This document shows, in pieces, positions 1-20,000 of a stretch of DNA of 20,000 bases. Made by a program: the position numbers and the translations under genes. How positions within the stretch are numbered: position 1 is the stretch's first letter; every line of letters begins with the position of its first letter. The notes beneath the pieces were generated by a model. The model was not told the origin of the DNA. It searched no databases and worked only from the letters and a program-made list of their open reading frames with translations. The stretch is from Seison nebaliae (Eukaryota). The stretch spans positions 177,879 through 197,878 of the forward strand of contig JALJEE010002316.1 of the NCBI GenBank assembly GCA_023231475.1, read 5' to 3'.

Positions 1-1
1 A

Positions 2-109
2 TGTCGAAATCATCGTACACTGGTTGCTTTAAGAAGAAATGCAGAATTAATTCCCCGTCATCTCTTCCAGGAAATTATAGTTAATTTTACTTGGCGCAGG
101 ATAGAATAA
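2..109 (+). CDS. Possible 3' end of an upstream gene (CRNHRTLVALRRNAELIPRHLFQEIIVNFTWRRIE*), product unknown
   Basis: Frame 2 is open from the window edge to TAA at 107-109, with exon-like composition. I recognise no family. Confidence 0.3.
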   Translation, partial: CRNHRTLVALRRNAELIPRHLFQEIIVNFTWRRIE

Positions 110-739
110 ATTTCGACAATTCACTTCACATGCTTCGAGCCTTGAACGAATAGAGAGTTGATTTCTTGTGTAATTCGTCCTTTCTCATATACCAGTCCAT
201 TTCACTGCCCTTTAACTCGTTACAACTTCATGCACTTCATCTTGTCCTTTCCATATTCGCGAATAAATGTCGATTCCATTCCTTCTCAATTCCCATTTTT
301 CAAAATTTTAATAGATTTACATTATTAATTGAATATGAATAAAATATAATAGGTTTTCATTAATTTCCTATTAAGTCAAAATTTTTCTTGTTTATCACTC
401 TCGTGTTTTTATCGGGGAAAATTTTAAAAATTCCGACGCTAAGGAATATCATTCCAGTATTGTCCAATTCCAATAAAGGAAAGTTCTAATTTGTTAAAGA
501 AAGAAAATTATCGTCCGTATCTCGCAATAGTTCGCTCAGTTGATTGGTGTTGAAATGTGCAGAGTAGTGAAAGAACGTCAAATAAGTCGTTTATCGTACT
601 GGATAAAAGGAAAACATGTATCGAACAGTTTTAACATGAATTAGTCAGTGTAATGGAGCAGATCTAATAAGGAGATTACGTATCGAGCCCGAAAAAAGGA
701 GACGAAATAAATTGATGTTATGTTTTTCAAGTTTAGCGA

Positions 740-3700
740 ATGAAGAGTATCCGGAGACATACAGTTTCTACCGGTTTCTATGGTAAATTTGTGATGAACA
801 ATCTATTCTACGACGATTCTCATTCATCTCGTATCCGTTTGCTTATTAATAATCGCAAGCTGAAAAAAAATATCTGTCGAAGTAATCTACCTATATGTGA
901 GAAGCGAATGGATAAGTTTCATAATATGAACTGCATCTTTAATCATAATAATGACGATGAAGATGATGTATCGGAATCACGGATGATAGAAACGTCGAAC
1001 AACCATCTGAATGTTGAAGAGGAGAATCATTGTCGAACCAAAATGTCTTCTTCTCCATTAGTTTCACGTAAACGTAAAACAACCGCGAAATATGACGAAC
1101 GAAAATCGGAAGAGATTCATCGAAACAAACCGAAGGAAACGTCGATGGAAATAAAGTTTGATGCGAAGGATCAATTGACGAGAAAAGAATTATCGGGGAA
1201 ATACCTTGAATTATATTTCACAACTCTTTTCTTTCCCTCAGATAATAAGTTAACAATGAAATTATTCGGTAATAGGAATGCACTTTTGAAGGAGAAGATG
1301 CGGCAAGAGAATGTTGGTCATTGGATCATCCATCCTTGTAGTAATTTCCGGTTTTACAATCTCTTCCACCATTCAACTCTAATCAACTTTTCAGTTTCTA
1401 TTGGGATTTGTTAATGCTAGGATTATTAATGGCAAATCTAATTATATTACCGGTGGCAATCTCATTTTTTAATGACCGACATTATCCTACCAAATGGTTA
1501 ACATTCAACATATTCTCCGATTCCTTCTTCATTCTCGATGTGGTCGTTAATTTTCGTACAGGTTCTCATTCATATATTAAATTATTTCTTTTAAATAATT
1601 TATCATATATTCATATTGATTTATTTATTTATTAAATTTCCCATTCATTCACTCCCATTCATTCACTCCCAACATTAACGAAGGTATTTTAACTAATGAT
1701 TATGCCGAAGAAATAATATTGGAACCGAAAGCAATCGCCAATCATTATTTACGAACTTGGTTCGTTATCGACATGTTGAGTTCGTTACCGTTGGACTACA
1801 TCTTCATCATATTCGAAGATACTGATACCAATTCGAGTTATGTGAAAACGGGTCGTGCATTCAAAGTTCTCCGATTGACCAAATTGATCAGTTTATTGAA
1901 GTTGTTGAGAGTGTCACGTCTCATTCGATATGTTCGTCAATGGGAAGAGGTATTGTATTTATCATTATTAAGAGATTTATATGGTTTTTAATTTTCTTAA
2001 GTTTTTAAGTGTCGCTGGAATGGTTATGAGAATATTAAATTTAGTTTGTTTAATTTTACTATTGGGTCATTGGAATGGTTGTCTACAATTTCTCGTTCCA
2101 ATGTTACAAGATTATCCAGAAGACTCTTGGGTAATTCTCGATAATATAAAAGTAGAATTGAATTAAAAGATTATGTTAATAATAATGTTTTTAGGATGAG
2201 ACTTGGTTCATCCAATATACTCATTCGTTGTTCAAAGCATTGTCACATATGTTATCGATTGGTTATGGGAAGAATGCTCCTCGTACCAATTCCGATATGT
2301 GGATGACAGTGTTAAGTATGATGCTCGGTGCGACATGTTATGCGATAATGATTGGTCATGTTTCCGCTCTAATTCATAGTTTCGATGCTTCGAAAAGAAT
2401 GTATAACGAGAAAGTTTATTTCTTTCTATTCCATCAAACCGTTTAACCATTTCTAGTATAAACAAGTGGAGGAATATATGGCTTGGAGGAAATTACCGAG
2501 AGCGATGCGGAAACGTATTCGTGATTATTATGAACATCGATATCAAGGGAAAATGTTCGACGAGGAGAATATTCTCAACGAGATATCGGAAAGATTAAGA
2601 GAAGTTAAAATTTAAATTTAAATTTCTCCATTTTCCATTGTTAGGATGTCTTGAATTATAATTGTCGCTCTTTGGTGGCGAATGTTCCGTTTTTCGCTAA
2701 CGCCGATCCGAATTTCGTATCTGATGTTGTCAACAAACTCAGATATGAAGTTTATCAGCCATGTGACATTATCGTGAAAGAAGGAACGATAGGAACGAAA
2801 ATGTATTTCATACAAGAAGGAGTGGTCGACGTTTTAAAATCGGATGGAGAAGTGTTCACTTCCTTAAGTGATGGTTCTTATTTCGGAGGTTATTCTTTTA
2901 TTTTTTAAATTTATTTAATTTAGATTTTTTTTAGAAATTTGTTTATTAACAAGAGCTAGAAGGACGGCTAGTGTTCAAGCGGTGACATATTGTCATTTGT
3001 TTTCTTTGTCCATCGAAAATTTCAATATCGTTCTCGATCAATATCCATTAATGCGACGTACGATTGAATGTGTTGCGGCGGAGAGATTGACGAAATTAGG
3101 GAAGAATCCGAACGTGATTAATTCCAGTGAAGATTTGAGGAAAGATCAAGAATTGATGAATGAAATAATTGAGCAGAATAGTGATGAAGCGAGAAATCTC
3201 ATTTCGAACTATTTGGATGTAATGCCAATGAAAAGTTTAAATTTTTTTCATCTTTCAAAATAATTTTAATTAATTTTAATTTAATTAAATTTAAATATAT
3301 TTTTTAGGAATGTTTGTTGATGAGAATTTAGAGGATTATTTAAATGGCGCCGTCAATGCCGATTCGACCAGTACTCAATTTAGTCGTCATCCACCCAAAA
3401 TGCAGACATCATTTGCGCTAACATCTCCTGACAGTTCATCCATTCGCGCCTTTAAACGACCGACAGTCGACTCGAAGATTATAAATAGAACGGGATCATT
3501 TCTTCGATCGAAGAAGTTGTTCATTCCGAAACAAACACACGCATTCAGTGAAGATGATCTCTCCATACCTTATATCGACAGTGATGCCTCATCATTTGAA
3601 GGATCGTGTCGCAATTCGTTAGCACCAAACCGTCTGTCCAGTTCGCTGTCAGTCGATTTTCTACATCGATTATCGGAGAAGAAACGTCAAAATAATTCAA

Positions 3701-5562
3701 AAAAAAATAAATCATTGAAAACTTGTCGATATCATGAACAGACGAAGATTCAAGAATTGAGAAATAGTTTGAAAATTAGTCGTCAAAGTCTCTTCAATCA
3801 TTTCCGTACCATCAGCGAATCGTACAAAATCCGGAAAACTCTGGTGCAAACTAATTCGGAAAAGAATTTATTAAAACCGGCCGTTCAAGATGAAATTACT
3901 TCTCATTTATCACCATTCCAAAATAGTGGAATTGCCAATGTTTTCCGCTCGTCAGTTTTCCATAAAATTGGTGATGTCATTACTGCACCGAGATATGCGC
4001 TAAAAAAAAGTAAACCATATTCGAAACCGGTTTTGCTTAGAAATGAAACGAAACAATTAACATCGATGGACAAGATTTCTGTGTATAAGAATTGTCTGAA
4101 TCCGTATGATAAATTTGTTTCCGATTCACATAAATCCAATTTGAGGCGTGATGATAATTCGATGATATCGATGGCGAAAGATGACGTTCTATCAATCAGG
4201 AATTGTTATCGACGTTCAACCGAATATACGATGCCTAGTCAACGATCAAGTGGATTGTCGAATACATCTGATTTGATTGATAATCAATCAATCTTCCAAA
4301 CTAAATCATCACTTTCCGATCAAACACTCAATGATGATGATATCGAAATGAATCCGAAAGATTCAGTTGGTAGTAAACATTCGGAGAAGAAGAATTTATT
4401 TCGAAAAACCATGAGTAAAATTCTCCCGATGATTAAACATAAGAAATTATTGAAAGAAAATGATTCATCGTCAAAAAAATCATCAATCGCCTCACTCACT
4501 AGACAAAATTCGATCATCATCAAACAATCAAGTCAAAGTACGATATCGTCACATCATCGAAATGAGAAATGTCCAAATCCAATTATTACGATTGAGAATG
4601 AAGAAGTCGATTTGAATAAAGACGATCATCAACTAAATGGTAAATGTCGACAATCGATGATTGGTCCATTGAATAAATTTAGAAATATCGTTCGATCTGT
4701 TGGAAGTAACAGTGCAATTTTGGAGGAGCATAAAACGGATGTTGTGGAATTGGATTTAGAGAATAATCAATCCTTATTTTCCGGTGATGTTGGACGTCGT
4801 TTAACGATTAGTGAGAAATTGAAAAGTCGAAAAATTGGATCGACACTTTTTAAAACTCCGAAAAATCAACCACTTCAAGCCACCGTCGATGCTCAAGGTG
4901 TCTATCAGAGAAAGTTACGTTCCACCGAAGATCCCGCCATGTTATTCCATATGTTATTGACACCGGATGAAATATCAGCAGAAAGTGAAATGCAACAAAG
5001 ACAACAATTATTACAATGTAATCTTCCTTTTTTACAATTGGCGAGAAATACTTCATTCAATTCTTCGAATAATCTCAATGAATTGAATGAGAATTCCTCC
5101 GTCAAATTGGAGGATGGTACGTTGTCTCCAAAATTCCAAAGTTTTCGACAATCAAAATTCAATGTGAATGATGAGAACGAATCTATGATACAACAACCAC
5201 TCATTCATACGTCGAATAATGAACTGTCCAATTTTCAAAATTTTACAGATAAATTTGATGAAAGTGATTCGAATTATAACAAATTAACACAAACTAATTT
5301 AAATCGATGTTTCCGAGTACCATCCGTTCGCATTCAAACCAACTCCACTACTCAACATTACGACAACTTATTTCAAAATCCTTCATCCAAACGACCAGCT
5401 GCGGAGAATATTCTAACAACCGCATTACAAAACCGTCTCAAAGACGCCATTGATATAGTGGAACCGAAAAGTTTAGGCGAAAAGAAACAATTTGCAACTA
5501 TTGCTAGAAATATTTTGAGGAAACAGAAAACTAATTATTTGGGAGTGCAAGAAACCGAGTAA
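740..5562 (+). CDS. HCN: Hyperpolarization-activated cyclic nucleotide-gated channel (HCN/Ih), 9 exons, ~1452 aa
   Basis: Exons 740-1350, 1395-1561, 1684-1949, 2002-2151, 2195-2413, 2457-2603, 2645-2888, 2935-3234 and 3308-5562 join into one 4359-nt frame. Motifs: [16 protein letters not shown]4 [44 protein letters not shown], pore [14 protein letters not shown]-linker [39 protein letters not shown]. The start codon is uncertain (later ATGs exist). Confidence 0.97.
1639..1671 (+). repeat. 14-nt tandem duplication (cccattcattcact x2) in HCN intron 2
   Basis: Exact copies at 1640-1653 and 1654-1667, plus a partial third copy. Confidence 0.85.
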
Positions 5563-6051
5563 GAATGAACTTAAATTATTTATATCATTTTTAAATAAAT
5601 CTACAATAAAGTTTATTGAATAAACTGAATAAATTACAAATGATTTTATCCAACCTAATTTCCTTTCTAATCTTCTTAACATCAATTATTAACAATTATT
5701 CTACACATTTTATGTTCCTACTAGAAAGAGTAAATCAATTTTCTACGATTCAAAAAATTTTTTTTTAAATTTGCATAACTTTATTATCGGTGAAATATAA
5801 TTTGGTGAAAATAGTTATCTTCACCATTTTCATCTTTAGTTTATTTTCATAATTTTGTGACATTATTTAAGAATTCTTGTTGTTTGTTAATGTTTTGCTT
5901 GATGTGATTTAGTGAGAGATGTTATCATTGTTGATAATATTAGCTTATAATAGAATTGTTGAATTAGAAATAATTTAGACAGATTCTTATTCGAAATTGT
6001 TATTTTTGAATTCGAATTGAATAATTAGCGTCTAAATAAATTATATGGGAA

Positions 6052-6225
6052 ATGGCAAAGCGGTTATTGAAAGCGAATTCTGCCAAGAAAATTTGGGCAT
6101 CATATGCAATCATCATAACCTTGGGAATTTACGGATTTACATGGGTGCGAAAAGACGTCGAACATCAACGATTTCTATCGATGAAGGAAAGACAAAAGCA
6201 AAAAGAATTGATGAAAGAATCTTAA
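6052..6225 (+). CDS. 57-aa single-pass membrane microprotein, possibly mitochondrial
   Basis: MAKRLLKANSAKKIWASYAIIITLGIYGFTWVRKDVEHQRFLSMKERQKQKELMKES*: basic N-terminus, one hydrophobic helix, charged helical tail. It is shorter than any ORF in the track, which lists the overlapping wrong frame (6045-6242) instead. Confidence 0.7.
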   Translation: MAKRLLKANSAKKIWASYAIIITLGIYGFTWVRKDVEHQRFLSMKERQKQKELMKES

Positions 6226-6384
6226 ATTATGGGAATATTTAGAAGTAATTTCTTTCCAACATTTTTCTTTGAGATTTCATTTTAATAATATTCAAAAAGA
6301 AACAAATTTTATTTATTTTACATTATTTCTCAATATATTTCGTTCCACAAAAGATTTAAAATTTTATCGCTTCATTCCACCAAA

Positions 6385-7214
6385 ATGAAGTCGATGTGGA
6401 CACAATCGATTCGGAATTATGCGAAACGAATGAGAAGTCCAAAATTTGTCGATTATAAATCGGGAGACAAAGTTGGACTGCCGATTGTGGAGAGTGAAAC
6501 GATTATGAAAATTTCTCAAAATTCTCAGCCGAACATGTTCCATCATTTTGTTTTTCTCAATAATTTTATTTTAAATGAAAGATTTGAAGAGAAATTAAAG
6601 AAATTATTTTCCTTAGAATATCATCGGAAAGTTCTCCTTTTTTCTCTTTTCATTGAATTCAAACGAATCTTTTCTTAAGAATGAATTGTATAATTGGCAA
6701 GAAAATATGCTCGTCTCTTTAGTCTCGCCCAATTTGAACGACGAAAACGACGTTGGTGTACAAATAGCGAAATTAACAGGACGAATTCGTAAAGAGATTG
6801 TCCATCATCAGGAATTGAATGAAGTTCATAAAGGTCTTAATGAAATTATCTTTTAAATGAATTTAGGATGGTTGGGCGTCAGCTGTTTGTCGAAATAATG
6901 TAATGAGACGGAATGATTTATTGTCAGAATTACGACGCCTGGATAAGGACCGTTATGAATACATTAAATCGATATTAAAAATTGATCATTATATTCCTGG
7001 GGAATACTCACGATTCAAGATGACAGTACATGGACGTCGACGATGGGAATTGAAGCAATTAGCTCATAATTATCGGATGTACAAATTAGAGAGATTGAAA
7101 GAGGAATCGAAAGGGAAACAAGAAGAATTTGAAAAATATAAAAAGAAGAAATTGAAAGAGATTAATAATCGACTGAAATTAATTGGATTGGAATGTTTGC
7201 CTGAAAATAAATAA
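6385..7214 (+). CDS. MRPS15: Mitochondrial small-subunit ribosomal protein S15 (uS15m), 4 exons, ~230 aa
   Basis: Exons 6385-6536, 6582-6630, 6680-6823 and 6867-7214 total 693 nt. S15 signature: VGVQIAKLTGRIRK..HH..D...RRNDLLSELRRLDKDRYEYIKSILKI. The basic N-terminus looks like a targeting peptide (SIRNYAKR). Confidence 0.88.
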
Positions 7215-7242
7215 ATTTCTTTATTCTTCTTCTTATCATACT

Positions 7243-7317
7243 CACACCGATGGATGGATTGTGTGTTTGTACAAACGAAAATTTCTACATCCACACAATC
7301 CTCCAGTTAACGATGTG
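7243..7317. other. Long imperfect stem-loop between MRPS15 and TRPA1
   Basis: Perfect 10-bp inverted repeat ggattgtgtg (7256-7265) / cacacaatcc (7292-7301), extended inward (tgta/taca, aaa/ttt) and outward (tgga/tcca, cacaccg/cgatgtg). Confidence 0.55.
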
Positions 7318-7508
7318 TTGAAGCGAAATAATTATTCACATTCCATACTTCCATACGAGTAACTATTTCTATCAACTAATTAAAAAAGATGACTGATAAT
7401 CATCAAAATGATACTTTGGTTTGAGTAAATCGAAAAAATCTAAAAATCTTCTTTATATTTTTCCAACATTGAAACGAATCGAATAAATTGAATAGTTTTT
7501 AAAAAATA

Positions 7509-10500
7509 ATGGACGGGAAAATTTGTGTGATGTCGGAAAGTCCTCTTTGGATCATAAAAGTTCATTTGAAATTTAATAATAATTAATTTTAATTAAATAA
7601 TTTTTAATTTTAATGTTAATTGTGGAATAAAGTTAGCATCGACTAATGCAAAAAAACGATTTGAGAAAGAAATCAAGAAATGTCCAGAAAAACTTTATGT
7701 CCATGATTCCCAATATCGAACATGTGCACATGTTGCTGCTAATAAGGGATCGATTGACGTATTGGAAGTCATTACAAAATTGGATGGAAGTTGAAAATTT
7801 TAAGATTTTCATAATTATTATTCACATTATATAATTATAGAGATGTTGAATATGTTGGATAATAACGGAAACACACCATTATTTTCAGCGGTGGAAAACG
7901 ACGAAGTTGAAATTGTTCAATTTCTTTTAGGACAACATGTGATAGAATTAAGACATCTGAATAATGATGGTCTGCGCATCGTGACATATGCCGTGGTCAA
8001 TCATAAGATGAATTCATTAGAAGTTATTTTGGAATTTAATACCAAATTAGAATTTGAATTTTTCAAGTGTTTATTAAAATCGTCAAGAATTAGAGTTGAC
8101 GAAGTAGATAAATGGGGAGATTCGGCTCTACATTATGCTGCTAGAAATAATTGGAGGACATCTGCTAATATTTTGGTTTGAGAATTTGTGGAATATTTCA
8201 AAAGAATCAACATCTTTTCCTTCAGTTAGAATCTGGTGCTGATATGTTTCTGTTAAGTAAACATGGTAAAACTCCGTTTCATTTAGCCGCTATGTATGTG
8301 TCGAATGATGTACTAGAAGAGTTTTTCCGTGTTGCTGAACTTAAAGGATTTTCTCGAGATGAAGTGATGGAATTCACTTGCAACGAATCTAGTCAACCAT
8401 TACATTCGGCTGTCAATAGTGGTTCGATTGAAGCGGTCAATCTTTGCTTGTCACACAATAGTCGAATTACCAACACATTAGTTCTACTTTTGGAATAATT
8501 TGAATAAATGATTAATTAATTTGAATTTGAATATGGTTTTGTAGGATGATAAATGTACACCCGTCCATCTGGCCTCCATGTTGGGCTCATATGACATTTT
8601 AGATCTTTTATTAAGGAATTCCACTGAAGACACTTCGACAGTTATGGAAATGGTGGATCTTCAAGAACAAACGCCACTTCATAAAGCCGCAATGTTCGGT
8701 CATTTGAATGTCTGTCAATTACTTCTTCTTAATGTTAGATCAGAATTATGATGAAAGGATTATTATTATTACTACTCTAGAACGCAGCGATAGATGCGAA
8801 AGATATTAAAGGTAGGACGCCGTTGTTATTAGCTGCGAGGAAAGGCGCTTATTCCGTTGTCCAACATTTGCTCGACCATCCCGACGGAAAATTGAATGGC
8901 TTCGACTACTTAGGCCGAAATATTCTTCATTTACTTATTCAAAATAATGCCCAAGATTTCGAAAGAATTCAATCATTAATTAATTCTGTTGCTTTCTCAC
9001 TCATTCAACAAATTTATTATTCTTTTCGTTCTAGAGACCATCATTATTGAAATTATTAAAACTAACAGATAATAACGGAAATACACCGTTACATTATGCT
9101 TGTGAAATCGGCTGTGTTGGTATGGTCGATGTTCTCATTAAATTGGACGACGATATTTCCCCAAAGAATAAAGTTCTGCTTTTTTTTTCATTTCTCATCG
9201 ATATTCATTTCTGATTTTACGAAAGAATTTGAAAAGTCCGTTACATTTGGCGGCGGAATTCGGCAAATATAATGTCTGCGAATTATTGTTAAAGAATAGT
9301 GGTGGGAAGAGAAATATGGTGAATGAGATCGATAAGAATGGATTTACACCGTTGCTCTACGCTTGCAAGAATGGAAAGAATAAGTTAATCGATCTCCTCT
9401 TAGAAATGGGAGGAATTCTATTAAAGTTTTTTTTTCTTGTTTGAATTTTCCATAATTTTTTTGAAGAGATTTCGAAGGTAATACTGCCATACATCATGCT
9501 GCGAGTGGTGGCCATTATACGACAATCACAAAATTATTAAAAACACACATTCATCTGATCAATTCGGAAAATGTGGTGAAAGTTTTGTTACATTTTTTCA
9601 TTCATAAATTGTTTTCAATTGTTTTCAAATACAATTTGTCCATTTTATTCTCAAATATAATTAGTCCATTTTATTCTAAAATACAATTTGTCCGTTATGT
9701 TTCCAAATACATTTTATCCGTTTTATATTATATTATTGTCAAATATAATTTGTTCATCCTTTCCATTTCTTTTTAGAATACGGCCTTACATTTAGCAACG
9801 CTCAACAATAAACCGAATATTATTATTTGTTTAATGAGTTATAAAGAGATTCGATATAGCAGGAATGCGAATAATCAATTATTTATCGATCTCGCTATCG
9901 AATTGTCATTGGAAGATTGTTGTAATGTGGTAATTAAACATAATTCGTGGAAAACGATTCTTACAATGGATTCCTTGAAATATCGAACGCCCTTTATTGG
10001 CATGATCGAACGATTACCCAAATGTGCTCTAGTTATTATTTTGCCTTAATTTGAAAAGAACAAATTTTCATTCATAGAATGCTTTGGATCGATGTTATCA
10101 ATCATCAAATCAATTACCTTATCATCCAGATTTTAAGGTTTTACTTCACAAAATTTTTTTCTCACCGAAAACAATTTTTAGTTAACTGTCAATTTCTGTT
10201 TGTTAAGATGGACAGCTGATCAAGCTGAATCATTGAAGAGAATGATAAAAGAAATAGAAGAAAAACGGAAAAATGAGAAATTGGAGAAATCGGATAAAGA
10301 GAAACGACTTAGGAAAAGTTCATCATTTAGCGGAATGATACCAAATAAATTAACTCACAAATCATATTCCATCCTACAAATTCCCACATTCATGAATTTG
10401 GCTGAGAATAGTTCCCGTTTATCTCCCTCATCGATGGTGAATAAAAAATCGGTAATTGACGGTCTATTAGAAAAAACTGAGAATAATTTATATAGTTTCG

Positions 10501-12366
10501 ATATGTCATTTATGGATGTTGTTTATAATCCTTTCGTTCCAATATCTGTTAGTTATGCTCAGTATCAATCTGTTCATTAAGTTTCTTTTCAGACGATGGT
10601 GAAATATGAAAGAATCGAATTATTGTCACATCCAGTGACAACTCTCTTTCTCGACTACAAATGGAGGAGACATTGTGGAATTGTCCAATTTTTGAATTTG
10701 GCATTTTTCGCCTTTTTCCTTTTTCTTTTTACTCTCTTCATTTGGCAATATGATATCTGTTATCATGAAGACGTCAATTTCCTGGACGAACTAGTTAAAA
10801 AAATTCGTGGCGAAGAAATTATGATTTATAACGAGACTGCTCAAAGTTATTTTGAGAGAAAGAATTTTTCCATATTTTCAAATACCTCCCAAAAGAATCG
10901 TTGTACCGATTTACATATGCATCCCCAAGAAGTTCAAATTTATTCTTTCCTTCAAATCTCCATTATCTGATGACTTTAGGTGATATCTTATGAAATTCGT
11001 TTGTTCATCTCAAAAGATAGTTCGTTGAAATTTAAAGCGATTTGTTTATTCGTATATTCGTTATTGAGAGTTTTTGAATTGATATTTTTGTTGATATTGG
11101 AAGTTCAATTTTTTTTCTATCTATATCTTCCATTCTTTCCTTATCCGTATTTGCTGTTAGAAATATCGATATTTTCAAATCGATCGAATCATGCAATGGT
11201 TCGTCTATCTTCCATGTCTCTTATTTTCGTTACCATTCTGTTATGACATCTCTTCACACACTCAATGGGTTATGGGAACTATTTCCATATTTTTCGCTTG
11301 GTTCAACTTATTACTCTTTGTTCAACGGTTTTCAATTCCATTCAAATTTTCAAAAATAAAATTAAAAATAAAAAAAAATTTTACATTTTTCAGATTAGAT
11401 ATCGGAGGTATTTATGTGGTGATGTATTTCGAGATTTTAAAAACGTTATTAAAAGTGGCGATCATTTTTAGTATCCTCATGATTGGATTCGCTTTCTCAT
11501 TTATCATCATATACTCATACCAAATCGACAGTCCATTCCATCAACCGTTAAATGGAATCATAGAAATCTTATTCATGATGATGGGAGATACGAGAAATTT
11601 TGAACTTTTCTCTGCGTCACACGATCATGATAATTCCAATGATCTCCATTTTCCCAGTATCTCCCACATATTCATCGTCACTTTCCTTCTGTTAATGTGT
11701 CTCTTATTAATGAATTTACTCATCGGTTTGGCAGTCGGTGACATTGGAAGTGTGAGACAGAATGCCGAATTGAAACGATTGACTTTAAGAGTGTTGCTTC
11801 ATTGCGAATTGGAAAGAAAAATTCCGAAACATTATCATCATCATTTGGAAGTTCCAGCTATCCGAATTTTTGTTAATCGAGAACATTCGTTATTTCGAAC
11901 AGTTAATATATTTAATTCTATTATTTATTTAATTATTTTATTTTCTTATTATCCATTTCTAGTTGAAAGAATTCGTTAGACAAAGTACAGATTATAAAGA
12001 TGGTAGAATCAGTTCACTTTGGAATGTGGAGAACTTTTACATTACGAAAACTTATCGTGATCGACTTATGCAATCGTTCTTCAAACAACATAATCGTGAT
12101 ATCCATGAGAAAGCGGTTGATGTTCTTTCTCCAAATAAATTGTTGACACATTTCTCATCAATTGAAGACAATATCGATAAAAACACAAACAAGTTACACA
12201 TCTCTCAAATTTTTCAAATAATCTTTTTGTGTTTAGTATTTGTCAAATTAATCAAAAATTAGACAGTTTAATGGATATCATTCAAAATCGATTAATGAGA
12301 GAATGTTCTATTGATTATGCTTCTTATACATCATCAACCGAGAAATCGAACAAGACAAAACTTTAA
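7509..12366 (+). CDS. TRPA1: TRPA1-type ankyrin-repeat cation channel, 19 exons, ~1259 aa
   Basis: Introns: 7560-7632, 7790-7840, 8023-8067, 8176-8225, 8481-8544, 8734-8780, 8988-9034, 9173-9225, 9426-9466, 9582-9776, 10032-10077, 10138-10181, 10548-10592, 10932-10979, 11103-11160, 11328-11393, 11902-11962, 12193-12236. Removing them leaves one 3780-nt frame with many ankyrin repeats (GNTPL, TPLHKAA, SPLHLAA), MVKYERIELLSHPV, GIYVVMYFEILKT, pore MMMGD and S6/TRP-like LMNLLIGLAVGDI..VRQNAELKRL. Confidence 0.96.
9625..9764 (+). repeat. Degenerate 26-nt minisatellite (about 5 copies) in TRPA1 intron 10
   Basis: Units: tcaaatacaatttgtccattttattc (9625), tcaaatataattagtccattttattc (9651), taaaatacaatttgtccgttatgttt (9677), ccaaatacattttatccgttttatat (9703), tcaaatataatttgttcatcctttcc (9739). 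Confidence 0.85.
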
Positions 12367-13157
12367 CAATTTTAGATTATCGTCAAGTAACATTAAATGG
12401 AAAATTTTTAAACATTATTTTTTCCAGTAGTTTCAAATCGAAATAATTTAAATTTCCTTCACATTTAAATCATTATCATCAGACGGTGAATAATAATTCA
12501 AAAGAATAATATCGGTTACGATATCGATGAAACGATATATTCCTTTCCCACAAGATTTTTACTGATTGTAAAACGGTGCTGGTATGTAAAAAAATCTATA
12601 GAAATCAGTGAGTTGATCGGAAGTTTGATTAAATGTTACTGTAAACATAATATCAACTCAACACATAAACGAATATTCAAGTTTTCTTCAATATTATTTT
12701 TCCACAGTTGAGAAATGATTACAGGAAAAGAAAAAAATTTTTGAATTTAAAAACCTAGTCTCCATATATGGTAGTCTTTTCATACCGATATTATAAAGCA
12801 TTCTATATAGATTCTATATATCTAACCTATATAAACATTCTAAACTAACAAATTTCAAGAAACGGGAAAAAATAGACAGAGTTTATTTAATGATAAAATT
12901 GATATTCAGTTGAATTTTGAGTTGCTTTAACGTTTGTTTCTTATTAATATCAACGTTGGATGCAGATTAACTTTCAACCGTTTCAAATTTTGTACGCTAG
13001 GGGTTTCAGACCTCGATTATTTCAGAGTAATGCAAACAGCAAAAGTGAAGTTGATTTTAAAAAAAATCATAAATAAAAATTGGATTGTTAATTATTTTTA
13101 ACTTAATTCATTTCAGTTTATTACTGCATTTAAGTAGTTTAAGTTCTTTCGAAAAAT

Positions 13158-15126
13158 ATGGCAAACTTATTAGAAAAGATTTTCATAATAATTAACACTC
13201 ACATAATTATATGTTTATCCAAACGGAGATATTATGATATCTATCAAAGAAATTGTGATGGTCTTACTGTTTTAGGTCTACGTTTCAATTTCACACATCT
13301 TTGTAACAATAATCATCATGTGTCTATGGCGTTCGAAGGTTAATTTTACTATTGTGAAATGGAGAGAAAGATGTTTGTTTTTTGTTTATTTTAGACAAAG
13401 AGAAGTTTCTTGTTGTGGCCGACGCACTTGGTAAAAACATTACATCACTGGGATGGAAAAAGACAGTTGAAATATATAATTTGACTTGACTATATTTTCA
13501 TAGAAATAGATTCCCGAATTGTTGAAGACTAATATGAAAATTCGCGGGGACTTTTTTGAATTGGGTCACGAGTTCTAAGATTTTAGTTGCGAAGAATTAA
13601 CATAGTTTATCATCTTTTTCATACATCTAGATTTACGGGTCATAGCCATTCTCTATGTGTGGTTAATTTTTTCATTTCAACATTTGTTCAATATTATTTT
13701 CTTAAAGAAATTAAATTTCAATGAGACTGGAGCATTTATATTTAACGCCACTAACTATTTTCAATCAGCTTCTACTCTTTTAGTGGATATTCTTCCTACT
13801 CATATAAAATGCAAGGATGAAAACGGTTATCTCGTATTTATGTTACAGAAGAATGTCGGTACGGAAATATTTTTAACTCAAAACGTAATTGCGTTAGTTT
13901 CTCATGAACTCGCATGATTATTGAAATATCTTACAAGTTGTTTGGGACGAATAATTTAAGGAAATTTCAAAAAATTCTTTTAAATAGAAATATCTGTTTT
14001 GAACGTTATTATTATATTATTATGTTTCGTTTTTTTTAGGACCGTTACGCCGAAGCCTGAAGAAGGTTAATATATTTCTTTTTTTTGTAAATTAGTAAAC
14101 AAAGTACAATAAAAAATAATCATGAAATGAGGAAAAGAATCGATGATATGGAAGTGTCTGGAATTTGAATTTTCATCTAAAAAAATTCTAGTCATAATTA
14201 ATTAAATAACCAAATTTTCAATACTTGTTCTGCTGAAATGAATAATGTCTGCTTCTTTCGTAGAAAACTTCTTACGAAAAAACAAAGAAAATTATAAAAC
14301 AGTCCGTAAAGAAATAACATTCACTGCTCGAAAGCATGGTGTGTCTGATGTAGAAAGCATCATTCTAACAGACGATACTATCATAAATAGTATGAAAGAG
14401 AGTGTTTGTAGTAATTATATAAAATTTAAGGTTCCTCTTTTTTCAAGACGTCATATCTAACATTCATAGGAACTTAAAGATCAATTTGGCATTGGATGGA
14501 AAGTTTATTCGATGAAGTTCAAGAAAATTTACAAAGAAAAAAACAAGATTATGTGTGATACTATCCTTAATGTCATAGCCAATGTTAAAGAACTTTAATT
14601 ACCATTGAATTTATTATGTCGTGACGAATACATTAGGTAACGAAACGGCAATACGAAAAATTGAATAAAACTCGTTCAACATTTAAGTTCAATACCATAG
14701 ATGCTACACATGAGAAACTTAAATACAAAATAAACGTAGCCCACATAGAACAAAGTAGTTTTTTAATAAGTACACCATTTTATTCTATCAATTTCCAATT
14801 GTAGGGATTATAGCGGAAGAAAGTTCATCAATTAACTTGAACACCAACAGTCATCTCAAATATACGATTATCTCTACAATTGTGATAGTGGTCATTTTTG
14901 GTTTAATTGTTACAGTAATAATTTTAATCAAATGTCGCCGGAAGAAGAAAAAATTCGTATAGTTCGATTTTAAATTACAAATACAAAAAACGATATTAAT
15001 AGTTCAACTAGATCCAAAGAAACTAATGTGGATGTGGCGAATTATATTACCGATAACTACTATTATCAAGCTGATTCTAAAACTTTTTGGTCGTCGACTG
15101 TTATGGGTGGTTTACATCGCACTTGA
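13158..15126 (+). CDS. Unrecognised type I single-pass membrane glycoprotein, paralogue A, 11 exons, ~403 aa
   Basis: Exons 13158-13338, 13395-13465, 13510-13571, 13631-13661, 13708-13892, 14040-14065, 14264-14403, 14470-14583, 14637-14757, 14805-14961 and 15003-15126 total 1212 nt, all with GTT..AG introns. It has a hydrophobic N-terminus, several N-x-S/T sequons, a TM segment (TIISTIVIVVIFGLIVTVIILI) followed by KCRRKKKK, and a Tyr-rich tail. Exon-by-exon similarity to paralogue B supports the model. Confidence 0.78.
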
Positions 15127-16151
15127 CTCAAGTATATACGTAACATAGATATATTCTCGCATAATCATTTTTATATCAACGACGTACTTATTATGTACAA
15201 AGTAATCATAGATAGTGATAATAATATTAAACAAAGTTTGGAAAATTGTAGAATGAACCTTATTTTTTGAGATTTTATAAATAATTTATGAATAATGTTA
15301 TCTGCTAGGTCGATTAAAATAGTCTTGCGTTTAATTAACTAATTTCGTTTTAAATTTGGTTAATATGGAAAAATTGTTCTTTAATGAAGTGAAATAAAGT
15401 AGTGAGTACAGAATTAGTTGACGTTATTATTTATCAACTATTCTTAATAATAATAAATAAATAATAACGTAAAATATTTACGCCGCTTGTTTATAGAGAT
15501 GCTAAGGGATATTTTCTTAACCAATCTAATTAGAATTCTTCAAAATTTACTCTACAGAAATATTTTCCCCTTACTTATGTTCATTTATTTGCTTTCTCTC
15601 CCTGTAACGCCAAATCAATTTTTGTCAAAAAAAACTTCGTTGTGTATTTTTTCACCTAATACCTATCGTACAACAATTCTTATCCAATATAAATATATTT
15701 ATAGTTAACAAAGGGTTAGAGAACCTTCCTATCAATGTAAACCATTCTACCATGGGAAAATGGTGTAGAATCTAGTAGTCCTTAAATGAATTTCTTGGAC
15801 GAAAGCAAAAACCGTGAAGATATAGTAGATGTACAATATTTTAAAAACAGTCAATTCACCTACAGTATGACTTACCGGGCATAAATTTTTTTTCAGTATT
15901 TTTCAACCAACCTCCTCGGTTGTTCTAAAAAAGCTGAATAACTTACATTATTATTCGTTATTGTTAGAGGTATTCTTTTTCTAACGAAAATAATGAATGA
16001 AGGAAAAATGATTACAAAATAGAATATATTGAATTGAAATGTAATTACTTTACCTTTTTCCAAATAATTTAATAGATTTCCCATTATAATTTACCTTATT
16101 TTTTTTAATTTTCTGAAAAACAGAAAAACGGTTTTACATGTCTCGAGACAT

Positions 16152-18520
16152 ATGGATTATTACTGTAATATAAATTATTCTACAATAATTACAATAATCA
16201 TTATACTGTTTTCGAACTGCACTATTGTACTTCCTACTGGAAGTAAAACTGGGTTTTACCAGCTGAATAATAACGCGCGTTATTGTAGAAATAAGAAATA
16301 TGTTAATAACATATCATCATATTGCCCTAAAGTTCTCCTACACTATTTACAAGTTCCACGTTTAACTTTTTTACAATCGATAATTTAAATTTGTTGTATG
16401 TTGAAAAAAAAATTAAGTCCAAGGAAAAAGTAACAATGTGCCTAGCGGTCCTGGTGGAAAGGCACGACCTGAAGTTAGCGGTTTATACTATTCAATTTGT
16501 AATTATCAATCAAAATAGCTGGAAGCCAAATCCTCGCCATTAAAAGGATCATTTTATATCTTACGACAAATGTTATTAGATTAAAGTTGAAATTTCTTTC
16601 ATAATCTTGTTTAAAGAACTCAAGACGTACCATCTGCACAAAATTGTATAGTTTGTATATCATGTAAAGAATAGAATTGACTTTTTTCCTCAAGCAATTA
16701 TTAGAAAACAAGATGGCGATTTATCAATTAACTGAAACGGAGTTCAATATTCGTGTACCTAATAAACATACATTTCCTTTTGTACGTTGCAAATTGAAAA
16801 ACGGTAAGAACAGGTACATACTGGAAAGAAAAATGGGTGAAAAATATTCTTTAACAAATAAAATTATTTGGTTAGTAAAAATTTTATGCATTATTATGAA
16901 ATCATTACTTCGTGGAGATGAGGTTCGTTGTTCTTCCCAATTTCTTTCTAAATGGAAGGTTCTTTCCCCCATTTAATTATATAAGTAATTAAGCATTATA
17001 GACGATTAGATTAAACCTATAATTATAATATGAATATATGAAAACTATATAATAATAATAATAATAATTTTATTTATTTCATTTGTAATAATTCATTTTA
17101 AGTGATACTATTTTTTTGATAGGATAACAACAATCACTACAACTACAACAACCACTACAACTACAACAACCACCGCTACAAGTGCAATATTTAGGTTAAA
17201 TTTCATATTAATTTAACGATGAATAACATTATTGATTAATTGTATATTTTTCCATAATTAATTAATTAATAATTATTCATTACCCCAATTTTAGGGAATA
17301 ATTAACCATGCAGAGTATAAAATCAAATCCCCTAGGAGCAAATTAAAAAGAAGATAAGATTATTGTTATTTATTTTTAAAATTCCCATCAGAATAATTTG
17401 GAAAAAACGGAAAAATTAAATAATTAAATAATGTAGTAAATAATTATTTATTACAATAATATAAATTTTATTTTATTATCCAACATTATAGTACTACTGC
17501 ATTGGATTCGGGAAAGAATCTACCCAAAAACGGTAAGTCACTTTAATCATACTTCTCTACTTAAAATCATTTTTTTTCATTTTATTCTTATTATCATTAA
17601 TTATTATTACTATTAACAAGTTGTCAAAACTAATGGAAATTTCAAAACTGTGTAATAATAAACTTAATATGAAAATTATTGTATTGAAATAGCTTCCAAT
17701 GGACTTAAAAAAGTGGAAAATGTCCTAAACTTTGTTGTAAAAACTACAAACGTCACACAACAAGATCTGCACGATATGGCAAGGAGCGATATATCTTTGC
17801 AAAATAGAATAGAAATTTGTGAAAGAACTACAAAAATGCCTAATGTTTAATAATTTAAAACTTTAAAGACTTTATAATCGAACTTGATAGACTCTTCACG
17901 ATCCACATAATATTACTTGGGATTTAAATAAATTTATTTTTACAAACGGTACTCGTGAAGGAGAGGGAATTTATTGTGAAACTGAGGTTCACGTACAATC
18001 AATGGTTCCTGATTTTCGTCTCGACCCGATTTCCACAATTTGTGTTTAATATTCAATAAATTTATTAGTTAAGTGAAAGTCAATATAAAACTCTAGTAAA
18101 AGACCCTTCACCAAGATATGAAGGATTTGGTAAAGATATGGAAATTTTCAATTTAACCCGAAGTTAATTCCTCTTTTATTGAACTTGGATGAATTAATAT
18201 GACAGTTAAACAGTAATTGTAACTAAAAACCCGTTTAAGAAACCCGTTAATGTTAAGTTCTGGCTGAAAATCGGAATTGCAGCTGTTGTCTTTTTAATTT
18301 CGGTTGTGCTATGTATTGTGTCGGCTCGTATTGCGAGTAAGAGAGCTCCTAAAGAACGTCGAAAGTTATTTATTATTTAATTCTATAATAGACAATACAA
18401 ATCACTTCAATTTATAGATCACTTTCCAAACATCATAATGTCAGACCTGGTTATGGAGGACAAGATTATACATATATATCTTATTATGTGACTAATCCTG
18501 AAAAAGTCTCACAAGTGTAA
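16152..18520 (+). CDS. Unrecognised type I single-pass membrane glycoprotein, paralogue B, 12 exons, ~417 aa, with Thr-rich stalk
   Basis: Exons 16152-16359, 16418-16473, 16519-16571, 16617-16650, 16695-16870, 17123-17194, 17492-17532, 17693-17844, 17891-18004, 18069-18162, 18214-18364 and 18418-18520 total 1254 nt. Features: signal-like IITIIIILFS, TM IGIAAVVFLISVVLCIVSA, C-terminus EKVSQV*. The exon 2 frame and the 17533-17692 junction are the least certain parts. Confidence 0.75.
17124..17180 (+). repeat. Coding (ACN)n repeat giving a poly-Thr, mucin-like run
   Basis: Translates as ITTI(T)13AT and contains actacaactacaacaacc x2. It is bounded by an acceptor ending at 17122 and a GTTAAA donor at 17195. 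Confidence 0.75.
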
Positions 18521-18776
18521 ATGTTTTTTTTGAAGAGTTATATCTGAAGTTATAAAAATTACGAAAAATTAAACTTTTTCTTAAATATAACAGGCAAATA
18601 GAGCTTGAAACAGATTTGATAAAAATATAATTAACAAACTAATTTACCAACATTATTTTAACAAGTTCGTATATGTAGGTTAGGTTGCTTCCCAAATAGA
18701 TGAGATTAATAGATCCTACAATGTATTCCTGTCATATAAAACTTACACTGTAAATATCGATTTTTTTAAAATAAAA

Positions 18777-19169: not shown

Positions 19170-19723
19170 GAAAAAGTGATGCAGAATATAAAATTTTTTT
19201 TTAGATGTCCAATAATTACGTAATTATCGAAAAGGGTTTTTTGCATTATCTAAGAAATTTTAATTCGTTGAAAAATTCTAATTATCCTATCTTCTTCAGC
19301 ATCATCAATTGTTATTAAAATTGGTAACAGAAAATTATATTTTTTTTGCATTTTCTGTGCACATATTTCAGCACTCACATAAAATAGATCTCAAATTGAT
19401 CCTCCAGTTTTTCTTAATTTATGATTAAAAATTCATGTCAATAGAGTGAATATTCTTTATTTTATGGATAAAAGTATAAGAAACATTTTTTAAGTTTTTC
19501 GCTAATTTTTTACTAAATCGAATTTTGGATTGCATTGCTAATCGGTCCTTTGTCTCCTATGAAGAAAGTTATGAGCATTTTTTAAAAAAAATTTGTCCGA
19601 TTACTTTTAAATCAAAATTATTTTTTTTTTTTTTTTTTTTTTTAATATTTTTTCTAATTTATCTCGATGTGAATTGGAAAAACTTAAGAGATATTTTTTT
19701 GAAAAAACGAGAAAAGAGAGAAA

Positions 19724-20000
19724 ATGATCAATAGTGGTACATGTACCGAAAATCACGACGCTAACTCGTCTATTATTTCCGATATACCGGTATCGATCAC
19801 ACCTTTGGTTCCTGGTGTCCCAACGCAACTTACAAGAGTTAACCAGTTACTCAAGTCAGGGAGCATTCGGGAATTGCTCGAGAAATCTTCATCCAAAAGC
19901 GGAAGGAAGAGGAAGAATGGTGAGACCGATGGTGTTCCTTCAAATTGTGAAACACCTTTCGTTGGCATGAAAGTCCCAAAACCAGGTTCGAACCAAAGTG
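19724..20000 (+). CDS. 5' part of a gene running off the window; low-complexity N-terminus with NLS-like GRKRK
   Basis: ATG at 19724 (aaaATG) opens 92 codons to the window end: MINSGTCTENHDANSSIISDIPVSITPLVPGVPTQLTRVNQLLKSGSIRELLEKSSSKSGRKRKNGETDGVPSNC... GC content rises sharply at the ATG. Confidence 0.72.
   Translation, partial: MINSGTCTENHDANSSIISDIPVSITPLVPGVPTQLTRVNQLLKSGSIRELLEKSSSKSGRKRKNGETDGVPSNCETPFVGMKVPKPGSNQS

What the first reader, a model, noticed from the sequence alone, without database searches (positions are those of the whole stretch)
1351..12236. Rewired 5' splice-site code: donors are A|GTT, not G|GTRAGT
Seen: 27 of the 29 introns placed by protein conservation and frame in HCN, MRPS15 and TRPA1 start GTT (TRPA1 18/18, MRPS15 3/3, HCN 6/8). 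Only 3 have G at +5, there is no consensus at +4 to +6, and exon -1 is A in 18, G in 7 and T in 4. At HCN intron 8 a more canonical-looking GTAATG (3219) is out of phase and GTTTAA (3235) is required. The same rule then decodes two more genes (20/21 introns, but those picks are not independent). Established: metazoan donors are AG|GTRAGT, read by U1 nt 3-11 (U1 U6 pairs with +3, C4 with +5, C9 with -1) and by the U6 ACAGA box; +3T is normally a minority, with Entamoeba GTTTGT a non-animal precedent. Inference: this animal has a divergent spliceosome, e.g. an altered U1 5' end or U6, heavier reliance on U5 loop I pairing to the A-rich exon end, or protein-based donor recognition.
Basis: partly seen in the sequence, partly recalled or inferred. 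Interest (0 to 1): 0.88.

Follow-up and report, generated by a model that had tools for sequence, protein, structure and literature searches.

The report
Rotifer introns that start with GTT
In this DNA of the tiny marine rotifer relative Seison nebaliae, 27 of 29 introns start GTT and lack the other start-signal letters that animals normally use, which likely means that its splicing machinery has changed how it reads the start of an intron.

Summary
Confirmed. The window is Seison nebaliae. 27 of 29 introns in HCN, MRPS15 and TRPA1 begin GTT, with +5G in 3. Donor-blind homology tests and the NCBI models (28 of 29 introns) agree. All 7 HCN core intron positions are shared with other animals, so old introns were rewritten. 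Controls from HCN genes: +3T in 12 of 104 donors of other animals and 24 of 49 of bdelloid rotifers; the class 'no -1G, +3T, no +5G' is 19/29 here, 0/49 and 0/104 there. Correction: A at -1 follows codon usage; the code is loss of -1G, not a shown A preference. Best reading: short G-poor introns defined by length, relaxed U1/U6 pairing, and a changed +3 reader, likely U1 nt 6 as in Entamoeba; METTL16 is listed missing in Seison alone of 25 syndermatans. No RNA reads or snRNA genes could be examined. I found no description in print. This scan noted the same pattern earlier on four other pieces of this genome (unreviewed notes).

The parts
740..5562 (+). HCN channel gene, 8 introns (NCBI SNEBB_008734 starts at 926)
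6385..7214 (+). MRPS15 gene, 3 introns
   Evidence: Pfam Ribosomal_S15 E 2.7e-5, below cut-off
7509..12366 (+). TRPA1 gene, 18 introns (3' part of NCBI SNEBB_008735)
1351..1394 (+). HCN intron 1, G|GTTTTA, 44 nt
1562..1683 (+). HCN intron 2, G|GTTCTC, 122 nt
1950..2001 (+). HCN intron 3, G|GTATTG, 52 nt (exception, +3 A)
   Evidence: second copy differs at +3
2152..2194 (+). HCN intron 4, A|GTAGAA, 43 nt (exception, +3 A)
2414..2456 (+). HCN intron 5, A|GTTTAT, 43 nt; bdelloids have GTA here in 9 of 9
2604..2644 (+). HCN intron 6, A|GTTAAA, 41 nt
2889..2934 (+). HCN intron 7, G|GTTATT, 46 nt
3235..3307 (+). HCN intron 8, A|GTTTAA, 73 nt (rival donor GTAATG at 3219)
   Evidence: profile test favours the rival by 1.5 bits
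6537..6581 (+). MRPS15 intron 1, T|GTTCCA, 45 nt, in frame without stop (weakest)
6631..6679 (+). MRPS15 intron 2, A|GTTCTC, 49 nt
6824..6866 (+). MRPS15 intron 3, A|GTTCAT, 43 nt
7560..7632 (+). TRPA1 intron 1, A|GTTCAT, 73 nt (not in the NCBI model)
7790..7840 (+). TRPA1 intron 2, A|GTTGAA
8023..8067 (+). TRPA1 intron 3, A|GTTATT
8176..8225 (+). TRPA1 intron 4, G|GTTTGA
8481..8544 (+). TRPA1 intron 5, A|GTTCTA
8734..8780 (+). TRPA1 intron 6, T|GTTAGA
8988..9034 (+). TRPA1 intron 7, T|GTTGCT
9173..9225 (+). TRPA1 intron 8, A|GTTCTG
9426..9466 (+). TRPA1 intron 9, A|GTTTTT
9582..9776 (+). TRPA1 intron 10, A|GTTTTG, 195 nt
10032..10077 (+). TRPA1 intron 11, A|GTTATT
10138..10181 (+). TRPA1 intron 12, G|GTTTTA
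   Evidence: donor only
10548..10592 (+). TRPA1 intron 13, T|GTTAGT
   Evidence: close rivals are also GTT; not recovered
10932..10979 (+). TRPA1 intron 14, A|GTTCAA
   Evidence: profile tests prefer other donors in this unconserved stretch
11103..11160 (+). TRPA1 intron 15, A|GTTCAA
11328..11393 (+). TRPA1 intron 16, G|GTTTTC
11902..11962 (+). TRPA1 intron 17, A|GTTAAT
   Evidence: profile test prefers another GTT by 2.6 bits
12193..12236 (+). TRPA1 intron 18, A|GTTACA
   Evidence: margin 0.4 bits

Best explanation
Seison nebaliae introns start with a reduced signal, GTT, at old intron positions, and the likely cause is a changed reader of the third intron base, most likely U1 snRNA nucleotide 6 turned from U to A, working on short G-poor introns that are likely delimited mainly by length. 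Shown on DNA: +3 T is nearly fixed; +4 to +6 and the -1 G carry almost no information (0.11 bits at +4..+6, against 1.08 in bdelloids); 21 of 29 introns are 41-53 nt; intron bodies hold 5% G; the nearest GT at least 40 nt upstream of the AG is the donor in 26 of 29.
For: Donor matrix and chance. Donor-blind tests with profiles built from 45 non-Seison homologues each: best donor has +3 T in 23 of 26, A in 3; spliced alignment gives 24 donors, 21 GTT, 2 GTA, 1 GTC, and 21 of them are my model's. NCBI models share 28 of 29 introns. All 7 HCN core positions occur in other animals. Controls 12/104 and 24/49; short introns of other animals 5/40. Second, diverged copy: alignments end at +3 of GTT donors 2889 and 3235, and at +2 of the two GTA donors. 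Precedent: the one other +3U system I found, Entamoeba, has U1 ACAAAC (10.1101/2022.06.08.495308). METTL16 Missing only in Seison of 25 species; U6 A43 faces +4 (PMC11732430); +4 A 8/29 vs 30/49 and 57/104.
Against: No U1, U5 or U6 gene and no RNA junction was seen. U1 is usually invariant when donors shift: ACUUACC in all 227 yeasts with a U1 found (PMC10581693) and standard in several other shifted lineages. In Entamoeba the whole hexamer is fixed (GUUUGU 88-90%), whereas here +4..+6 are free, so even a changed U1 would make only a very short helix. METTL16 loss predicts +4 U preference, which is absent (T 9 of 29); about 35% of metazoan BUSCO genes are 'missing' in this genome, so the call may be divergence or assembly. 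Control donors come from one gene; the 49 bdelloid donors cover only 8 intron positions and some loci are near-duplicates, so their p values are too small. The downstream genes gave no independent support (17 of 30).
Confidence: 0.5

Rival explanations
1. U1 is unchanged and largely bypassed; +3 U is selected at hand-over to U6, where G44 faces +3 and a G-U wobble would make up for the lost m6A43 cap after loss of METTL16, while U5 loop 1 holds the A-rich exon end.
For: U6 G44 faces +3 and binds A or G only weakly (PMC11732430 passage); METTL16 listed Missing only in Seison; snRNA pairing sequences stayed invariant in yeasts whose donors shifted; exon ends A-rich; true donors do not pair with canonical U1 better than decoys.
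Against: METTL16 loss is tied to +4 U, not +3 U, and +4 U is not enriched; a G44 partner should accept +3 C, seen in 0 of 29; -1 A is not above codon usage.
Confidence: 0.22
2. A protein reads the third base or the U-rich intron start (diverged U1C, LUC7, PRP8 or a TIA1-type factor) with standard snRNAs.
For: Animal precedent for a re-tuned spliceosome through proteins and modifications with the core preserved: Fritillaria borealis (PMC13326754 abstract). SNRNP40, SPF45 and LSm2 are also listed Missing in Seison.
Against: 29 of the 36 splicing-related BUSCO rows I read are Complete in Seison, including PRP8, PRP6, PRP31, SNRNP27, ZMAT2; U1 proteins were not among the rows found, so nothing points to a particular protein. 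The signal is one base wide, which suits base pairing.
Confidence: 0.13
3. No new reader: constraint is simply lost beyond GT, and T at +3 comes from T-rich introns and mutation bias.
For: Intron bodies are 48% T; 18 of 28 intron-internal GTs are GTT; bdelloid G|GT donors show 24 T of 40, near composition.
Against: 27 of 29 exceeds every background tried (p 7e-4 even at 0.66), while +4, +5 and +6 sit at or below the T background (9, 13, 10 of 29). Conservation in the second copy appears to reach +3.
Confidence: 0.1
4. Artefact of intron picking or a burst of new transposon-derived introns with a fixed GTT end.
For: No RNA check; the NCBI models come from a predictor that may have learnt the same rule; 3 of 26 junctions are ambiguous by homology.
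Against: Donor-blind tests return the same donors; HCN positions are shared with other animals; the 29 introns resemble each other no more than shuffles (top score 42, shuffled maxima mean 37, up to 50).
Confidence: 0.05

Closest known systems
Entamoeba GUUUGU(U) donors with co-evolved U1 ACAAAC (Roy and Bowser, bioRxiv 10.1101/2022.06.08.495308)
   Same: U fixed at +3 of GT-AG introns; short A/U-rich introns.
   Different: Entamoeba is intron-poor and has a strict full hexamer (88-90% GUUUGU, also +7 U) and, in E. invadens, a fixed branch point. Seison has up to 18 introns a gene, no signal at +4 to +6, and no branch motif enrichment in my test. U1 change shown there, untested here.
Saccharomycotina +4 A-to-U switch tied to loss of METTL16 and SNRNP27K (Parker et al. 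2023, PMC10581693)
   Same: Loss of the +4 A preference with METTL16 listed missing.
   Different: There +4 becomes U with U1 and U6 sequences unchanged and +3 is not the shifting base; here +3 is fixed to T, +4 is free, SNRNP27 is listed Complete.
The two animal and plant donor classes AG//GU (U5 loop 1) and //GURAG (U6 ACAGA) (Parker et al. 2025, PMC11732430)
   Same: GT core; A at -2 in 21 of 29.
   Different: 19 of 29 Seison donors lack both -1 G and +5 G and have +3 T, so they fit neither class; 0 of 153 control donors are of that form.
Fritillaria borealis non-canonical introns (Soo et al. 2026, PMC13326754)
   Same: An animal with a re-tuned major spliceosome and reduced U6 m6A.
   Different: There 95% of introns escape GT/AG and METTL16 is kept; here GT-AG is kept and old introns were rewritten next to the GT.
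Bdelloid rotifer donors (measured here)
   Same: Short (mostly 45-60 nt) A/T-rich introns, frequent GTT (24 of 49), weak +5 G (16 of 49).
   Different: Keep -1 G (40 of 49) and +4 A (30 of 49); all 9 donors without -1 G are GTA (8 of them one intron position).

Membership tests
U2-type (major) spliceosomal introns | GT...AG ends | tested here: met
   29 of 29; only GT donors were allowed, GT or GC
U2-type (major) spliceosomal introns | 5' site complementary to canonical U1 beyond GT (GTRAGT, -1 G) | tested here: not met
   5.03 pairs vs 4.70 for 462 decoy GTs, p 0.12
U2-type (major) spliceosomal introns | T-rich 3' end with YAG | tested here: met
   -5 T 23 of 29; -3 T17 C4 A8, so AAG is common too
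U2-type (major) spliceosomal introns | Removal shown by spliced RNA | not testable with these tools
   no RNA holder listed
U12-type (minor) introns | RTATCCTT donor (motif recalled) | tested here: not met
   none of the 29 donors
Entamoeba-type transformed donor system | U at +3 | tested here: met
   27 of 29
Entamoeba-type transformed donor system | Fixed +4 to +6 (UGU) | tested here: not met
   +4 T 9, +5 G 3, +6 T 10 of 29
Entamoeba-type transformed donor system | Compensatory change in the U1 5' end | not testable with these tools
Entamoeba-type transformed donor system | Massive intron loss | tested here: not met
   29 introns in 3 genes; 7 of 7 HCN core positions shared with other animals
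METTL16-loss donor shift | METTL16 absent | tested here: inconclusive
   BUSCO 'Missing' in Seison only, of 25 species, read from a published table; high background of missing calls
METTL16-loss donor shift | +4 U preferred | tested here: not met
   +4 A8 C9 G3 T9
Introner (transposon-derived) introns | New positions and shared intron sequence | tested here: not met
   positions tested for HCN only

The most novel reading that the evidence does not exclude
Seison nebaliae is an intron-rich animal that has recoded 5' splice-site recognition: a U1 snRNA with A at nucleotide 6 (or a spliceosome that no longer depends on U1 pairing) reads a bare GTT, U6 lacks m6A because METTL16 is gone, and intron length supplies the rest. 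It would be the first animal with a compensatory change in the U1 pairing sequence.
Probability: 0.42. Interest if true: 0.86.

Novelty: new variant of a known kind. Interest (0 to 1): 0.72.

Why it matters
The U1 5' end and the GURAG donor are among the most conserved signals in animals, and donor theory rests on a see-saw between -1 G and +5 G. An intron-rich animal that drops both and fixes U at +3 tests how little a spliceosome needs to find an intron start, and whether snRNA or protein changes come first. The rotifer series (other animals 12%, bdelloids 49%, Seison 93% GTT in this sample) gives intermediate states, and the deciding test, reading U1, U6 and METTL16 in a public 44 Mb genome, is cheap. 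It also affects gene prediction and BUSCO-based gene-loss counts in this lineage.

Tried and rejected
RNA check: no RNA holder listed; X1 and X2 behave as DNA, X6 and X7 laid nothing; no evidence either way on expression. U1C and LUC7 could not be searched: no query sequence was on hand, LUC7 has 0 hits in the BUSCO supplement and no U1 protein was among the 8 'small nuclear' rows. Downstream genes 12.9-18.8 kb: no Pfam match at cut-off; a donor-blind ab initio parser (15 of 18 TRPA1 introns exact in validation) gave 17 of 30 GTT with implausible micro-exons, inconclusive. Branch-point words (TAA, TGA, CTAA, TTAA, CTGA, TCA) not clearly enriched over shuffles; TTCA 12 vs 6.5, untested for significance. 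'A preferred at -1' not shown. Introner origin rejected. In one search the letter-by-letter table was cut (213 rows hidden), so the second copy's donors are inferred from alignment ends only; the four runs are one sample and the contigs are under 6x. Of 79 metagenome loci, 21 near-duplicates were dropped, 58 aligned, 44 gave at least one well-flanked intron. The genome-annotation paper on syndermatans (doi 10.1007/s10750-023-05268-6) is not held and might show splice-site data; the Entamoeba preprint's supplements were not seen.
Full report
Source. An HCN exon (2645-2887) is 100% identical to NCBI protein SNEBB_008734 of Seison nebaliae, next best 83%; a TRPA1 exon is 100% identical to SNEBB_008735, next best 48%. 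S. nebaliae is a seisonid rotifer with a genome of about 46 Mb and 32% GC (PMC8351084, abstract and passages). Contigs from runs X1 and X2 match window 1-17164 without a difference.

Observation. From three-frame translations I built models of HCN (8 introns), MRPS15 (3) and TRPA1 (18); after correcting two coordinate slips they translate without internal stops. Donors, n = 29: -2 A21; -1 A18 G7 T4; +3 T27 A2; +4 A8 C9 G3 T9; +5 A10 C3 G3 T13; +6 A13 C3 G3 T10. Retaining the intron shifts the frame in 22 cases, brings a stop in 4 and leaves an open frame in 3. Chance is excluded against every background tried.

Is it picking bias? Three checks. (a) Threading the two NCBI proteins on the DNA gives one solution each and 28 of my 29 introns; the difference is a 7195-7636 intron that fuses MRPS15 to TRPA1 and also starts GTT. 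These models may come from a trained predictor, so they are not independent RNA evidence. (b) With profiles from 45 non-Seison homologues per gene I scored every in-frame GT-AG alternative within 45 nt of 26 introns: my donor was best in 23, and the best donor had +3 T in 23 and A in 3; of 14 GTT introns with a feasible non-T rival, the GTT donor won 12 and lost 2 (3235, 10932). (c) A spliced aligner that sees only GT and AG placed 24 introns, 21 GTT, 2 GTA, 1 GTC; 21 donors are my model's and 3 differ in unconserved parts of TRPA1.

Controls. A scan of metagenome contigs gave 79 HCN loci; 58 were aligned after dropping 21 near-duplicates, 44 gave well-flanked introns. An exon of L034 is 98-99% identical to Rotaria and Adineta HCN, and 12 loci class as bdelloid. 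Bdelloids, 49 donors: +3 T24 A22 G3, -1 G40, +4 A30, +5 G16. Other, unnamed animals, 104 donors in 33 loci: +3 T12, -1 G90, +5 G55; their introns of 100 nt or less: +3 T 5 of 40. Donors with no -1 G, +3 T and no +5 G: 19 of 29 here, 0 of 49, 0 of 104. The bdelloid set covers only 8 positions and related species, so it shows a tendency, not a rate. All 7 HCN core intron positions of Seison occur in other animals; at 2414 bdelloids have GTA in 9 of 9. So ancestral introns were rewritten, and the 29 introns share no sequence beyond shuffles.

Second copy. At 80% likeness runs X2-X5 (one sample) hold a diverged HCN copy at depth 2-5, which fits the published report of two lineages in this species. 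Its alignments stop at +3 of donor 2889, at +3 of 3235 (two contigs), +4 of 2414 and +9 of 1562, but at +2 of the GTA donors 1950 and 2152, and one contig lacks the +3 A at 1952. This suggests that conservation reaches the T and that the two exceptions are not shared; it is read from alignment ends at low depth, introns 1 and 6 gave nothing, and the letter table was cut.

What the signal is. True donors match the canonical U1 complement (motif recalled) no better than 462 decoy GTs (5.03 vs 4.70, p 0.12); information at +4..+6 is 0.11 bits. Exon ends are A-rich against composition, but at 19 phase-0 junctions with a synonymous G option A occurs 14 times against 12.2 expected, and homologues also favour Lys, Glu or Gln there: -1 G was lost; an A preference is not shown. 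Introns are 41-195 nt, 21 of 29 at 41-53 nt, 5% G, and the nearest GT at least 40 nt upstream of the AG is the donor in 26 of 29.

Machinery. U1 and U6 could not be read. In the BUSCO table of PMC12256650 (supplement rows) 29 of 36 splicing-related rows are Complete for Seison, 1 Fragmented, 6 Missing. METTL16, SPF45 and LSm2 are Missing in Seison alone of 25 species; SNRNP27, PRP8 and ZMAT2 are Complete. About 35% of all metazoan BUSCO genes are missing in this genome, so each call is weak. METTL16 loss goes with loss of +4 A and gain of +4 U (PMC10581693, passages and sections 5 and 12); here +4 A is lost but U is not gained. U6 G44 faces +3 (PMC11732430, passages).

Mechanism. I commit to intron definition on short G-poor introns, relaxed pairing at +4..+6, and a changed +3 reader, most likely U1 nt 6 = A (0.5). 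It explains why only T is accepted, and the one other +3 U system I found has that change (10.1101/2022.06.08.495308: abstract, passages, section 12). Against it, U1 stayed standard in most lineages with shifted donors. Rivals: U6/METTL16 route 0.22, protein reader 0.13, drift 0.10, artefact 0.05.

Novelty. Searches listed no paper on Seison donor sites. Passages of PMC8351084, PMC10125929, PMC3464624, PMC12256650 (0 hits for 'splic' or 'intron' in its main text) and PMC10639083 (0 for Seison) do not describe it; the supplements of PMC8351084 gave 0 hits. The syndermatan annotation paper (doi 10.1007/s10750-023-05268-6) is not held and I saw nothing of it but its citation; subscription journals were not searched. 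Closest animal case is Fritillaria (PMC13326754, abstract and passages). Four earlier unreviewed notes of this scan report the same GTT pattern on other pieces of this genome; I did not check their counts. Verdict: real, a new variant of a known kind (transformed donor code), interest 0.72.

Noticed in passing
window 6385-12366: NCBI model SNEBB_008735 fuses MRPS15 to TRPA1 through a 7195-7636 intron that skips the MRPS15 stop (7212-7214) and the TRPA1 start (7509); likely an annotation error.
   Followed up: partly
window 6052-6225: Single-exon 57-aa open frame similar to DUF4748 (E 8e-6, just under cut-off), between HCN and MRPS15.
   Followed up: partly
window 3308-5562: HCN ends in one 2.25 kb exon coding a long Ser/Asn/Lys-rich tail.
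   Followed up: no
window 17533: A fully canonical G|GTAAGT lies at a plausible exon end in the last, unidentified gene; if used, canonical donors still work.
   Followed up: no
window 13100-15300 and 15800-18700: Two multi-exon genes without Pfam match, each with a late hydrophobic, membrane-anchor-like stretch (about 14870-14930 and 18270-18330); the second has a Thr run at 17120-17180.
   Followed up: partly
window 1431-3237: Low-depth diverged second HCN copy in X2-X5, with a shorter intron 2 (about 60 vs 122 nt).
   Followed up: partly
acceptors of the 29 introns: AAG acceptors are common (8 of 29; bdelloids 8 of 49), and SPF45 is listed Missing in Seison alone.
   Followed up: no
PMC12256650 supplement: ZMAT5 (a minor-spliceosome protein, recalled) is Missing in Seison and both acanthocephalans only, hinting at loss of the minor spliceosome in that clade.
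   Followed up: no
L002, L009: Bdelloid-like HCN genes (90% identity) in which few introns were found over the core, unlike other bdelloid loci with 5-7.
   Followed up: no
window 9590-9740 and 19700-20000: Short imperfect repeats inside TRPA1 intron 10; a multi-copy element with an open frame at the window's end (depth 200-400).
   Followed up: no
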